A stretch of DNA of 64,000 nucleotides from Heptranchias perlo. Lineage: Eukaryota. Below the pieces are notes generated by a model. It ran no database searches and was not told the origin of the DNA. It saw nothing but the letters and a program-made list of their open reading frames with translations. Positions within the stretch are counted from its first letter, which is position 1, and every line of letters starts with the position of its first letter. Positions 1 through 59,092 of this stretch are shown here, piece after piece. The stretch lies in assembly GCF_035084215.1 (NCBI RefSeq), contig NC_090347.1, forward strand, positions 8,742,001-8,806,000. Direction: 5' to 3'. The position numbers were made by a program, and so were the translations under genes.

Positions 1-465
1 CAGTATGTTGTAGTTTACATTTGTCCGAAGTATTGCAATTTTCCTGGAATGTTTTATGTGGTTAGGTGCTTTAAAGAAAATCATGGATTTTGTGCTCATC
101 AAGCTAAGGGATGTTTGGGCTAGGGAATGAAACAGTCTCTATGTTCTCCAGCTTTATCACATCAGTGAAAACTAAATCCAGGCATATTGTTGGGATAGAG
201 GGGAGAAAATCTGAATCTAACAAAAGCTTTTTAAAACAATGCCAGAAGTTGTACAGCGTAATATTTTAAAACCAGTTTTGCATTCTAAGACTGCAAGAGT
301 TTTGAGTAAATGTCTAGTAATTTACACTGTCTAATTTGAGTAAATGTCCAGCAATTTCTAGAAATTATATGAAATTGACAAATGTAAAAAAAAAATTCAG
401 ATGGCTGGATCTTGAAATTGATTTTTCTTTTTAAAATCCATAGTGAACCCTCAATGCAAACATTA

Positions 466-21214: not shown

Positions 21215-21567
21215 CTGCAGAGAAGTTGGGGGAAAATAAATTGTCTTTTTCAAATGGTCACTGTATAATCTCACATGCCATTAAAGTTAATTTATAACCT
21301 TTTCATTCAATAATAGGCAACATTTTATTTGCATTTCTCTTCTCCTGAGGTTTGTACAGAATCTGAAGATATCAGACTGATTTTCCCCCTGTAGCAGCCA
21401 CTGGCTTTCGGACCATTATTCTTTTGTGTAGATTTGAAAGCAGCACTAATTTCACAAAAATCTGAGAACTGAACAGCAACAATTTAATTGAAGGAGGAAA
21501 AAATCCTTTTAGTTCTCAGCAGAAAAGTTTAAACTCCCCAATTTATAATAATGCCTCATATAAATAG

Positions 21568-21781
21568 TAAACAATTTTACAACACCAAGTTATAGTCCAG
21601 CAATTTTATTTTAAATTCACAAGCTTTCGGAGGCTTCCTCCTCCTTCACATCGTTCACCTGAGGAAGGAGGAAGCCTCCGAAAGCTTGTGAATTTAAAAT
21701 AAAATTGCTGGACTATAACTTGGTGTTTTAAAATTGTTTACAATTGTCAACCCCAGTCCATCACCGGCATCTCCACATCAT
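21568..21781 (+). mobile_element. Fold-back mini-element (Penelope-like pseudo-LTR remnant) with hammerhead motif
   Basis: ~75-bp inverted arms, tail ...ccagtccatcaccggcatctccacatcat, flanking direct repeat (tcat)ataaatag. Confidence 0.8.
21654..21692 (+). ncRNA. Minimal type I hammerhead ribozyme motif
   Basis: ttcac-CTGAGGA-a-ggagg(aag)cctcc-GAAA-gc-TT-gtgaa: stem I, core, stem II and palindromic AAGCTT stem III. Confidence 0.7.
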
Positions 21782-22925
21782 ATAAATAGGTGGGAGAACT
21801 CTTCTCTGGGCATCTCTTTTAATGAGTGATAATTTAAAAACACGAACACAAAAAAAAAGAGGAAGATACTGCTCAATCATGGACCCTACCATACACCCAA
21901 GTTTATACTTTAAACTATCCCAAGTACACAGTTAGATGTTAGAACAACTTCTCAATTGCTCAATATTTAAAGAGAGAAACTATCAGCCTCCATTTCAATA
22001 AAATGCCCAGCTGGATAGTATATGTAAAATTTGTGACAATTGAATTCACAGAACTTTGTAGTCTAAATGAAGATATTGTGAATAAAACAGATCATTAAGC
22101 TCCTACTGTTGCCAATTCCAACTTAACAAGTGCTGCTTGTAACAAACAAACAACAAAAGCATTCTACAGTTTTAACCAGCCACTAATGAGTATAACTTCC
22201 CCCTTCTGATTCCTCCTCATGAGCATAACTTTACCAATCTTCCAGACAGAGCAGTGGAGGCAAAAGCCCAGAATGATTGAAGAAACAATGGGATTCTATA
22301 AATGTGGGGACATTAGGGTCTCTTTAGATAGAGGAATTAAGATGGGTCGAATGACAGTCCTCATCTGTAATTATCTTGTGATCTCCAATTCTCCCTCCTC
22401 TCTTCAGAGACACTACTGCTCCATTCAATGTCTCCTCTTGATATGGCTCAGAATGGGAACAGGGCAAAGCAAGACTTGTATTCCCTTCCAGCCCCGTTGC
22501 TATTCCATTACACTGAACATAGAAGCACTGATGATCAACACCACCTGCTGCAGAATTCCGTTCAAGTAAGCTGGACTTTGTAATTTTTGTTAAGATGTGT
22601 AGTGCACACTGTTGACAACTGTTTTGCAGAATATTCTATTTCAAAAGGTTTTCTTCTCAATGTGAACATATGGTTTTGTTGAATGACAAGACATCAGAAT
22701 TAGACAAACCACTTTTTTTTAAATAAACAGTTGAATATCAATTTGGTACATCTTCCTATTATGATATTTTGGACCTGGCTTTCCTCGCCATGCTTGTACT
22801 AATTGTAGCAAATTGTATTCATTTTCATTATTTTAGGTTGCAACACCATCTGGCTTTTTGTATAACCTTTTATAATTCTACTTAATATTTTAATGCGAAA
22901 GAGAAAATCAATTTTCAAAGCAAAT

Positions 22926-54727: not shown

Positions 54728-56503
54728 GTGTGATACCTGTCCTCTCACATACAGTTTCTTGCAGGGGTCACCAGCTGTTGCTCAAAAGCCAGAATCTTGT
54801 CTGCTTTTCCACTACCTAATCTGGGGTTATTAAAGCTAACTGCACAGACTGCTGCAACCTAGCCTTAATTGGTCAGGTCAGATGATGGTGTGGACTAACC
54901 CACATTTGTACTGTATTATCGTGTGGACTTGGCTGTAAATAAGGCCATGTTTTTCAGGAGGCTGCTGGTCCTCAAATGCACCACTTTGACATACTGGCCC
55001 CTACTCCAGAGAGAACGACTAATTAAAAAAGTAAATCTCAGAGTCCTCATTCTGTGCATTCCAACTTTCCCATTCTCCTTCCCCATTGTATTTTAAAATG
55101 CAGCCTGGGACTTGGATTTAAAAATGATTGGAGGTCAGTACATGGGTATATAAATAGACATAATGGCCAAATCAACCTTTTTGTAGCTGTCTGATGATGT
55201 AAGCATTATCACCATGCTTAAGAGTCTCCCAATCAAACTTAGAAGAACTTCACCCAGGTAAGAGTTTCTGCTTGCTCTATATGTAGTGCACAGTCTTTCC
55301 TGGTAGGGACACACCCCAGTTACCCAAATCCAGGAAGCTTAAGCACAGGTTGGGAAGAATCAAGTCTTTAGGACCTACCAGTGTAGGTAAAAATATTGCT
55401 GGAATTTAAACCAGCTAAACTGATGCAACTTGCCATCATTGAGCAGTGATGGAAGGAAACTTGGTTTCAGTTATTTAGCAACAAAACAAACTGCTTGTTC
55501 AATAATATGTACATGTGCTTTTACACCAATATTTAAACAACAGAACTCCTTTTGCCATCCCATTCTGGTTATAGCAGACCGTATATGGCAGTTAGTCATT
55601 GCAGTTAGCTGTTTATTATTGCACCTGTTTTGGAATCACTGCTGCAGTTATTATTGTGTTGCATGCTTTAAATTCACACTTCTCAGCTATAAAATTTTAT
55701 GGATAATCAAAAAGTAAAGTGAAAGGATTGAGTGGACACTCAAAATTGAGTCACAAATACTACGTAATCCAAATACACATCACATAATGCAAACCTTTTT
55801 GGAGCTGTGCATTACAGAAAGCCTTCGGGTTATTCAAGAAGTATGCCAAGTGCAGAATTATAAATTCCTTTTAATCGCTTCATACAGCGGGTTAGATCAC
55901 TTGGTTCACTTAAGAATCTGGGGTTGAAATTAGCCTGGAGAAATTATTTAAAAGTCTCCTGGAGTCTGAATTAAAATAAGTATAACAGTCAGTTTCCAAT
56001 GAGCATCAGTCCACTGCATAAAAAACTGCCCTTGCCAATCACCTAATGTGGGGGGGGGGGGGGGGGGGAAGAGAAGAAATATTTTATTCAATAAGCATCA
56101 GGAATTTAACAATAATACTGTGAAAAATGGAGATTTACATCACTGTGGTTTGTTTGTGTGTGTGGGAAGGGCAGGGGGACTGTTGAAAATAGTTGGTGCA
56201 GTGTAAGGACATTTATATCGATGGCGCAACCTCTACAACACCTGATCAGGGAGTTCCTGATGCTACTACCAGTTGGAATGTAAAGAAGTTTCATACCCAA
56301 CATCCTCATGTTAATGTCCTGTTTTAAAAAAAAGTCCTGAATTCCAGCCAATTTCACAGAGAAATAGTTAAATTCTCTTTTCACTCACTTTTTTAAAAAA
56401 TGTATCCTCTAAAATAGTTTAATTCCTGCTGAAAATTAACAGTCTCTACTTGCATCTTGTTTGCAGTGGCACTGTTGACTTTACACAATGACAAAACTGT
56501 GTG

Positions 56504-56679
56504 ATGATGTGGAGATGCCGGTGATGGACTGGGGTTGACAATTGTAAACAATTTTACAACACCAAGTTATAGTCCAGCAATTTTATTTTAAATTCACCTG
56601 AGGAAGGAGGTAGCCTCCGAAAGCTTGTGAATTTAAAATAAAATTGCTGGACTATAACTTGGTGTTGTAAAATTGTTTA
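56504..56679 (-). mobile_element. Third fold-back mini-element; hammerhead core at the apex of a 53-bp perfect hairpin
   Basis: Arms 56545-56597 and 56627-56679. Core CTGAGGA..ggagg(tag)cctcc..GAAAgcTT at 56598-56626 on the + strand. Flanks aaaactgtgtgat / aaaactatgtgat. Confidence 0.82.
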
Positions 56680-59092
56680 AAACTATGTGATACAATAGTT
56701 TGTTTTAACAGCTTTGAGAATACAGACTGTACTAATACATCATCGCAACAATTATGCTTCATTATTTTTTTTAATATAGAGTTTGTATTACACCTAATGT
56801 CTCTCAGGATGACCCAAAGCATATCATGTACAATGAATTACTTTAAAGGTTTTGTCATACAAGCAAACACAGCAGCCATTCAACACACAGCAGTCCTACA
56901 AGCAGCAGTGATGACGATGATCAGTTAATTTATTTTGTTATTCAGAGTGTAATGTTGGCCAGAGTACCAAGAGAACTTTCTACTCCTCTTCAAGTAGTGC
57001 TATGGTATCTTCAACATTCATTTGAACAGGTTTTGGTTTCACATTTCATTCCAAAGGACAGCACCTCCTACCATCCTGTACTCCCTCGGTACCAAGGTAC
57101 TATGTTGTAGTGTCAGCCTATGTTGTGTGCTTCAGTTGTAGAGTGGGACTTAAACCACAACCTTTTGGCTCAGATAAGTACAGTATTACCAAAGCCACTG
57201 CAATATTCTGCATTACAGTATCTCTCATCCACTGCAGCAAAAACATTTCTAAAGACCTGTGGTAATGCAATTTATAGAGTAGGCTTTGATAGGAGATGTC
57301 TGGCTAACATTCGCCAAAAAGAACAATGTCCCTCTTTAAGGGAACAGTGAAATTAGATCATCTATATGTTAAAAATAGTGTGGGGCATGTACTTCTTGTC
57401 CACAAACCTTATTTCATGCTGTCACAATTATCGGTCATGCTTTTCTGTTCATATTTACCATTTACATTTTAGTATGTCAATTGTCACAGTGTAGTTGTGG
57501 GCTGTGGGCACAAGGTGGCTCTGTGGAGCAATTTCCTTAAGTCTTTCCCAACTCGCTCATCAACTGACTGTGGGCAACCCCATGGGCAATTTACCAGTTG
57601 TCTCTGAATTTCCCCAAAAACATATCCTTACAGCTTACAAGCAATAAAACAATTACACTACACTGCAACAATTTTTGACCAAAATGCTGCAATTAAATAT
57701 TAATAAAAGCAATTGTAAGGCTGTTGTAAAATTCTGTATTCTGGGAAGGAATGACTACATATAAATGTCAGTATTGCCTGCATGCAAACAAAATATCCTG
57801 CAGTGTGCAGTGTTATAAGAACGTATCAGAACTAGCTAATTTAGATTTTAAAAATACTGTTAAGTCCTGTTAACTCATGGAAGGGGGATTACATGAGCCC
57901 AGCAGTAGTCCAGCATGGAGGGCCTGGTGAGAGAGTTCAGCCTGTCTTGCTGCTTTTCCCCCCACCTGCACTTTACAGATTGTGGCAGGTGCTTTGAGCA
58001 TGCTCGCCACTTCAAAGCGCTGTGAGCAGTTGGAAGTAATTAGACCTCAGGGAAAAAGAGAGCCAGGCTGCAAGACAATGGCAAGTGCCAGGAACACAGG
58101 GGGTTTCTCCAGGCACTTTGAAGTTCATTCAGCTAGACCAAAGTGGTGTTTGGTTTAGAAGAACGTGTCAGGCATCAGTGAAAGGACCACACTAGTAGAG
58201 GGCGACGGAAGGAGTGCATTTACTAACACGGAAGAGTGTCAAACCCCCTTTAGTTAATAAGTACTTTAAGTATATACAAGGGTTTGTATTCTGTATACAA
58301 GTACAATGACCCTCTTTGTACCAGTTGATTAAAGAGCTCATAGCATATGATTTCAATGTATATTTTTATTAGGATAAGGATGAAAGTCTATTTTCAACCT
58401 TTGAACCTTCTTTGCCAAACCCCTTTTCTCCTTTCATTCTGTTCCTCTCGTCCTGTTTTTTTTAAAACAAATGCAGTTACTGACTGAAATGTCGAGTAGA
58501 GCCTGGTATCTATGGATCGAGACATCTACATACACATATCTCAACACACACAAACATCCACACATATTGTATATATTACACACACATATCTACACAGATA
58601 CATTCCTAAGAGTGCAACCAAATCGGCATCAAAGTGATATTAGGTTTAATGACAGCACAACAAAGAACTAAAAAAAATTCAGTTAACATCTTGTGGCCTC
58701 TAAGTAATGAAGCTCTGGAAAAATCAGTACAATAGTCTTCCCCCTACCTTGTGAAATACAATCAAACCATCTGCTTTAAACTAGTCATTATTCTGGTTTC
58801 TACCATTTGCACATCCCTCTTTGGTTTCCGTGTGTCCTCCAGGATAATCAGGTCTATGTCCTTTTAGAATTTATATGTAATTTAGAAATGAAATATAATT
58901 TAGTTCAGGATGCGGATTTATGCTTTTCCCTCCTTCCTGTATCCTCATTGTGTTGAAATCAGGAATCATCCCGTCCATCTCTAATTATTTTATCCCAGCA
59001 CCTCAGAATTCGGGCGCTCTTCACCTGCCTCAGTTTGCCCTTCCTCCTACAATCTACAAACTTTTAAAACCCATCCTGATCACTACTTCAAA

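What the first reader, a model, noticed from the sequence alone, without database searches (positions are those of the whole stretch)
56504..56679. Hammerhead ribozyme core at the apex of a 53-bp perfect hairpin in a ~175-bp TSD-flanked mini-element
Seen: arms 56545-56597 and 56627-56679 are perfect reverse complements. They enclose only CTGAGGA-a-GGAGG(tag)CCTCC-GAAA-GC-TT, so the whole fold-back extends hammerhead stem I. Known: minimal type I hammerheads with a palindromic, loop-less stem III (here AAGCTT) occur in the pseudo-LTRs of Penelope-like retroelements and are thought to cleave as dimers. Inference: this is a non-coding, ribozyme-bearing, retrotransposed hairpin unit. On the tail-bearing (-) strand, the arm next to the tail begins at GUGAA, the expected 3' product of self-cleavage (GAAAGCUU/GUGAA). 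This could record reverse transcription of a cleaved RNA, or a template switch via stem I complementarity.
Basis: partly seen in the sequence, partly recalled or inferred. Interest (0 to 1): 0.8.

Follow-up and report, generated by a model that had tools for sequence, protein, structure and literature searches.

The report
Fold-back stub of a Penelope retrotransposon
This is a short hairpin left behind when a very common Penelope-type jumping gene inserted two partial copies of its ribozyme-bearing end back to back; it is an ordinary by-product, not a self-copying element, though such scars hint at how these elements insert.

Summary
The hairpin, minimal hammerhead and target-site duplication are real. 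The element is a head-to-head, 5'-truncated insertion of the pseudo-LTR of a young Neptune-like Penelope retrotransposon: 27,181 exact copies of its ribozyme-arm 39-mer; parent is a 3,083-bp unit with a 902-aa RT + GIY-YIG ORF. The 94-nt long arm is identical to the parent and ends at its start codon. This exact join occurs 16 times, with different flanks, five ribozyme variants and the tail on either arm: repeated accidents, not a family. Joins at other self-complementary spots are commoner (74 at the stem III palindrome, 31 at an AATT palindrome), and arm starts show no significant excess at the cut once stem I joins are removed. So annealing via stem I is supported; a self-cleaved template is not. 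Best mechanism: both nicked target strands prime cDNA at the two known start sites, and the cDNAs anneal. Inverted copies plus a one-sided tail are published Penelope features; this scan noted similar stubs in another genome.

The parts
56493..56505 (+). Left target-site duplication (13 nt, last 2 nt shared with the element end)
56504..56544 (-). Penelope 'tail': the 41 nt of the parent just upstream of and including the AT of its start codon; present on this arm only
   Evidence: parent ATG is 92 nt after the cut; 94 of 94 nt identical
56504..56597 (-). Long arm: parent pseudo-LTR from the predicted cut (+1) to +94
56593..56597 (+). 5-nt overlap at the join: both the end of the inverted long arm and the native 5' strand of hammerhead stem I
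56598..56626 (+). Minimal type I hammerhead: core CUGAGGA, unpaired A, 5-bp stem II with 3-nt loop, GAAA, loop-less palindromic stem III, U17; predicted cut after 56626
   Evidence: layout as in PMC4209133
56627..56679 (+). Short arm: parent pseudo-LTR +1 to +53, ending at the proximal start site, no tail
56679..56691 (+). Right target-site duplication (first base shared with the arm end)

Best explanation
A dead, 176-bp, head-to-head insertion of two 5'-truncated copies of the pseudo-LTR of an abundant, recently active Neptune-like Penelope element (shown; about 0.95 on its own). Mechanism (inferred): the element's protein nicks both target strands about 12 nt apart; one 3' end primes cDNA at the start codon (+94), the other at the proximal site (+53), on mostly uncut RNA of the same source. 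The two cDNAs have the same polarity, so they can anneal only where the RNA is self-complementary; here the long cDNA's TTCAC paired with the GTGAA copy of stem I's 5' strand at the end of the short cDNA, and fill-in fixed the hairpin. The ribozyme at the apex is a passenger and the start at GUGAA follows from stem I geometry.
For: Identity. Two start sites: arm ends are bimodal near +54..62 and +90..102 in 103 arms (numbering there is shifted by one). One long plus one short arm in 27 of 28 pairs of the unselected sample, 14 of 14 and 82 of 87 in two selected sets. Duplications mostly 12-14 nt (23 of 28). Join hot spots sit at self-complementary spots of the native RNA: stem III palindrome 74, AATT 31, stem I 16 (map; stem II joins listed). 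In 6 of 16 stem I joins, this one included, the tail is on the arm without the ribozyme, which a single self-primed cDNA cannot make. 6 of 38 pairs carry two different recurrent ribozyme variants, so a second template was used. In vitro, a Penelope protein nicks and extends both strands, starts at two sites flanking the tail, and prefers uncut RNA (PMC11167929).
Against: No intermediate was observed. PMC11167929 saw no difference in start site between the two strands, so the one-of-each rule is not shown biochemically. 28 of 38 pairs have the same variant on both arms (9.3 expected at random), which fits fold-back as well as shared templates. 10 of 16 stem I joins fit simple fold-back. Counts of join classes use exact patterns of 29-30 nt and were not normalised to a model of microhomology strength; the TTTAAA class was excluded by my filter and not counted. 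Non-inverted copies show a small, non-significant lean to the cut (6 of 28, p = 0.12).
Confidence: 0.68

Rival explanations
1. Same parent and twin priming, but the long cDNA ran off the 5' end of a self-cleaved RNA at GUGAA and then annealed through stem I.
For: The arm starts exactly at the predicted cut. Arm starts at the cut are 23 of 98 against about 12% expected under my uniform model (p = 0.0016). A few solo copies begin at the cut with the duplication directly adjacent (L151, L153). The core is conserved.
Against: 9 of those 23 are stem I joins, which always pass my filter; without them 14 of 89 (p = 0.20). Non-inverted starts: 6 at the cut against 7, 1, 5, 5, 0, 4 at the six neighbouring positions. 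Only 218 filtered arms fall in the 7-nt window against at least 27,181 that read through the cut. The cut-ending arm is the tail arm in 6 and the short arm in 10 of 16.
Confidence: 0.14
2. A single cDNA folds back at stem I and primes on itself (or priming is on an antisense template, as PMC3846280 proposed), and the endonuclease later resolves the intermediate, leaving the tail on one side.
For: Palindromes at inverted joins and this reading are published (PMC3846280; PMC8557442). Arms usually share a variant (28 of 38). 10 of 16 stem I joins have the geometry that fold-back predicts.
Against: In this locus the loop is in sense orientation on the strand that starts with the tail, the reverse of fold-back from a tail-primed cDNA; 6 of 16 are of this type. 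6 of 38 pairs have discordant recurrent variants.
Confidence: 0.14
3. A non-autonomous hairpin retroelement (SINE- or retrozyme-like) that is transcribed and retrotransposed as a unit.
For: 16 near-identical units of about 176-183 bp with duplications.
Against: Tail on either side, five loop variants that mirror the parent's subfamilies, short-arm ends that vary from +53 to +60, all flanks different; no head-to-tail tandem; one class in a continuum of join positions.
Confidence: 0.04

Closest known systems
Canonical EN+ Penelope-like elements with inverted pseudo-LTR and one-sided tail (PMC3846280, passages; PMC8557442, passages)
   Same: Single ORF with RT and C-terminal GIY-YIG, tandem units, hammerhead in the pseudo-LTR, 5' truncation, adjacent inverted truncated copy, 30-40 nt tail at one end, palindromes at the inverted join, duplications of similar size.
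   Different: Here both copies are cut down to under 100 nt and the join falls on stem I. The parent carries a CX4CXXC linker motif, the mark of the Neptune and Nematis clades; no tree was built.
PAc, Poseidon of the green anole (PMC11167929, parts 1-2 of 4)
   Same: Two internal reverse-transcription start sites bracketing the tail; uncut RNA is the main template; both strands nicked and extended.
   Different: In PAc the ORF starts inside the ribozyme and the start sites lie about 111-118 nt into the ORF; here the cut is 92 nt upstream of the ATG and the distal site is the start codon.
Minimal hammerheads of metazoan Penelope elements (PMC4209133, parts 1-2 of 4)
   Same: Core, unpaired base before stem II, G-C closing pair, 4-5 bp stem I, loop-less palindromic stem III; pairs on opposite strands 100-700 bp apart were noted there.
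   Different: Position 17 is U in 139 of 139 copies, which lengthens the palindrome to 6 nt.
Non-LTR retrozymes (bioRxiv 10.64898/2026.07.22.740005, part 1 of 5 and passages; PMC7229834, listing only)
   Same: Non-coding, hammerhead-bearing, derived from Penelope pseudo-LTRs.
   Different: Retrozymes are head-to-tail tandems with a ribozyme in each unit; this is head-to-head with one ribozyme.
L1 twin priming (recalled, no call)
   Same: Inversion by priming from both target strands and joining by microhomology.
   Different: In L1 the two cDNAs copy successive parts of the RNA; here they copy the same part from two fixed start sites, giving a hairpin.

Membership tests
EN+ Penelope-like element (parent) | Single ORF with Penelope-type RT (DKG motif, catalytic YxDD) | tested here: met
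   902-aa ORF; Pfam RVT_1 E 5e-10; motifs read in the translation
EN+ Penelope-like element (parent) | C-terminal GIY-YIG endonuclease | tested here: met
   VVY...YIG motif in the translation; atlas cluster at 0.96 with PF01541 on 31% of members; direct Pfam scan did not report GIY-YIG
EN+ Penelope-like element (parent) | Tandem units forming pseudo-LTRs with a hammerhead | tested here: met
   3,083-bp head-to-tail units in L296; ribozyme on both sides of the ORF in L297
EN+ Penelope-like element (this insertion) | Sequence derives from the pseudo-LTR; inverted truncated copy; tail on one end; target duplication | tested here: met
Neptune clade | Zn-finger-like CX2-5CXXC linker between RT and endonuclease | tested here: met
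   CHGNLCKTC; definition from PMC8557442; shared with Nematis
Neptune clade | RT phylogeny groups with Neptune | not tested
   no reference set fetched, no tree built
Minimal type I hammerhead | Core CUGANGA and GAAA..UH conserved, N7 and loop free | tested here: met
   139 native-like copies found by a downstream anchor: each core position differs in at most 4; N7 is G 87, C 51, A 1
Minimal type I hammerhead | Stems I and II kept under change | tested here: inconclusive
   stem I pair 3 C-G 97, U-G 39; stem II pair 5 G-C 94, G-U 14, A-U 11, but A-C 14; few independent lineages
Minimal type I hammerhead | Self-cleavage as dimer | not testable with these tools
   needs an assay
Non-LTR retrozyme | Head-to-tail tandem with a ribozyme in each unit | tested here: not met
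   single ribozyme, head-to-head arms
Self-propagating hairpin SINE | Copies descend from one hairpin master | tested here: not met

The most novel reading that the evidence does not exclude
These stubs are a genome-scale record of a Penelope insertion mechanism that my literature searches did not find stated: obligate twin priming in which a dimeric protein starts one cDNA at each of the two start sites, one per target strand, sometimes on different RNAs, with the conserved hammerhead stems and palindrome serving mainly as annealing points that close the insertion, not as an active ribozyme. It would explain the tail, the inverted pseudo-LTR and why weakly active minimal hammerheads persist.
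Probability: 0.3. Interest if true: 0.6.

Novelty: new member of a known kind. Interest (0 to 1): 0.27.

Why it matters
The locus itself has no likely function. Its class matters modestly: the Penelope insertion cycle and the role of its hammerhead are open (PMC8557442, PMC11167929), and this genome holds 53,801 ribozyme motifs and many intact ORFs, enough to test start-site choice, template number and ribozyme use statistically and to supply a natural active element for biochemistry.

Tried and rejected
Rfam scan: no hammerhead family, only a sub-threshold microRNA hairpin match. PDB sequence search with the ORF: no hit. DNA search of the own genome with an ORF piece: empty because common words are skipped; the protein search worked. 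Sequencing runs: no RNA holder listed, contigs only; laying four runs showed no usable starts, ends or circular joint, so nothing is concluded on expression or cleavage. Dimer cofolding gave a swapped-stem structure, not the active fold, and is uninformative. Window ORFs of 130 aa or more looked like LINE pieces and low-complexity repeats by eye, no host exon near the locus was recognised, and they were not scanned against Pfam. My extrapolation that AATT joins number about 90 was wrong; the exact count is 31. Literature searches for twin priming or two-strand priming in Penelope found no paper holding the terms or only unrelated ones besides PMC11167929; subscription journals, Repbase and Dfam were not searchable, and no supplements were read. 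A search of earlier findings by sequence and by place gave nothing.

Full report
Observation. The left arm carries 41 further nt (56504-56544) with no partner on the right. Rfam gave only a sub-threshold microRNA match to the hairpin.

What it comes from. A 39-mer spanning the ribozyme's 3' half and the arm has 27,181 exact matches in the 3.25-Gb genome, and a degenerate ribozyme pattern has 53,801; reversed-pattern controls gave 0. Two more copies lie in the window. Upstream of intact copies lies an ORF. [quoted passage not shown] The named homologues are predicted shark proteins. The predicted cut lies 92 nt upstream of the ATG. The long arm read on the minus strand matches the parent at 94 of 94 nt and stops in the start codon. 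Native copies already have TTCAC (or TTTAC, TTTGC) before the core, so the inner 5 bp of the hairpin are the natural stem I.

Architecture of the family. In an unselected sample (70 loci from the first 9.5 Mb of C1, covering most of the 100 places listed; some are local duplicates, such as L038-L040) 103 arms were found, with 3' ends in two groups near +54..62 and +90..102. 28 head-to-head pairs within 800 bp were found; 27 have one long and one short arm, and 23 have a duplication of 12-14 nt. Two selected sets gave 14 of 14 and 82 of 87; the sets are not fully independent. This is the published Penelope pattern of an inverted truncated copy and a tail at one end (PMC3846280, 8 passages; PMC8557442, 12 passages), and the two ends match the two internal start sites found in vitro for PAc (PMC11167929, parts 1-2 of 4).

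Is the hairpin a unit of its own? The exact join occurs 16 times (14 with a shorter pattern, one of them a chance join to host DNA). All 16 have different flanks; the loop comes in five recurrent variants that mirror the parent's subfamilies; the tail is on the cut-ending arm in 6 and on the ribozyme-bearing arm in 10. These are repeated independent events.

Does the join record self-cleavage? The native RNA has few self-complementary registers of 5 nt or more near the ribozyme, stem I among them. Exact counts of join classes: stem III palindrome 74 (both arms read through the cut, so both templates were uncut there), a 4-nt AATT palindrome unrelated to the ribozyme 31, stem I 16; stem II joins are frequent among the 100 of 1,049 rows listed. 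For arms starting between 2 nt after and 4 nt before the cut, 218 pass a filter, 100 were listed and 98 were recovered after merging duplicates: 15, 21, 23, 11, 10, 10, 8, with 23 at the cut. Against a uniform expectation of 12.3% (my own estimate, assuming 60% A+T flanks) that is an excess (p = 0.0016), but 9 of the 23 are stem I joins, which always pass the filter while random flanks pass about a third of the time; without them it is 14 of 89 (p = 0.20), and among non-inverted copies 6 of 28 (p = 0.12). A few solo copies do start at the cut, so a small contribution of cleaved RNA is not excluded, but well under 1% of arms start there. This agrees with PAc, where uncut RNA is the main template.

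The ribozyme motif. Among 139 native-like copies located by a downstream anchor (380 arms seen, 193 with a recognisable motif, the rest of those dropped as junction copies), every core position differs in at most 4 copies, while N7, loop II and the fifth pair of stem II vary between subfamilies; stem I changes are mostly to G-U pairs; stem II pair 5 includes 11 A-U and 14 G-U but also 14 A-C. This fits a maintained minimal hammerhead as in PMC4209133 (parts 1-2 of 4), where monomers did not cleave and dimers did so weakly. Position 17 is always U, which from recall is the slowest cleavage site and extends the palindrome to 6 nt. Activity is untested; the available runs were contigs only.

Mechanism. 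Shown: two fixed arm ends, one of each per inverted insertion; joins at self-complementary spots; a staggered duplication. Inferred: both nicked strands prime, one at the start codon and one about 40 nt upstream, and the two same-polarity cDNAs anneal where the RNA folds on itself. Fold-back of one cDNA can explain the 10 joins with the tail on the ribozyme arm, but not this locus and 5 others, where the tail sits on the arm that lacks the ribozyme. Arms share a ribozyme variant in 28 of 38 pairs (9.3 expected at random), so they mostly come from one RNA or one source locus; 6 pairs join two different recurrent variants, which needs a second template or a second unit of a mixed tandem (some arm-difference values there are register artefacts and were not used). 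Against: PAc showed no strand difference in start site, and no intermediate has been seen.

Novelty. The parts and the layout are published for Penelope-like elements; retrozymes differ in being head-to-tail (bioRxiv 10.64898/2026.07.22.740005, part 1 of 5 and 10 passages). Searches did not find twin priming stated for Penelope, but the library lacks subscription journals and I read no supplements, where PAc's per-strand start sites may bear on the point. Verdict: a real but ordinary by-product; interest 0.27, with the statistics of the class as the part worth keeping.

Noticed in passing
window 21568-21777: Second head-to-head insertion of the same family, both arms with most of the ribozyme, 12-nt duplication at 21556-21567 and 21778-21789.
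   Followed up: partly
window 42778-43009: Head-to-head insertion of a sister subfamily (A-U fifth pair in stem II, different arm), 13-nt duplication at 42765-42777 and 43010-43022.
   Followed up: partly
L296 1342-7133; table: Tandem array of 3,083-bp units with intact 902-aa ORFs; 39 of 150 listed matches (hand count) have the full-length open frame, so the family is very young and may be active.
   Followed up: partly
L025, L030, L031, L116, L120, L261; loose ends: Several independent insertions fall at the same AT-rich site of another repeat that looks like a CR1-type LINE ORF2 (label recalled): a target hot spot.
   Followed up: no
P0003, P0006, P0009, P0011: Predicted shark host proteins (NOXP20-like, XRCC5, septin 5a, PPP1R12A-like isoforms) contain pieces of this element's C-terminal region: exonised insertions or annotation chimeras.
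   Followed up: no
L147, L155, L163, L164: Insertions made of a short arm joined to only the tail or a fragment of it in the opposite direction, as expected if the distal cDNA stopped after about 20-40 nt.
   Followed up: partly
L069, L114, L116, L124, L145, L043: Inverted pairs whose two arms carry different recurrent ribozyme variants.
   Followed up: partly
L146-L154: Among non-stem-I copies that start at the cut, the next base on the cDNA strand is often T; small sample, unexplained.
   Followed up: no
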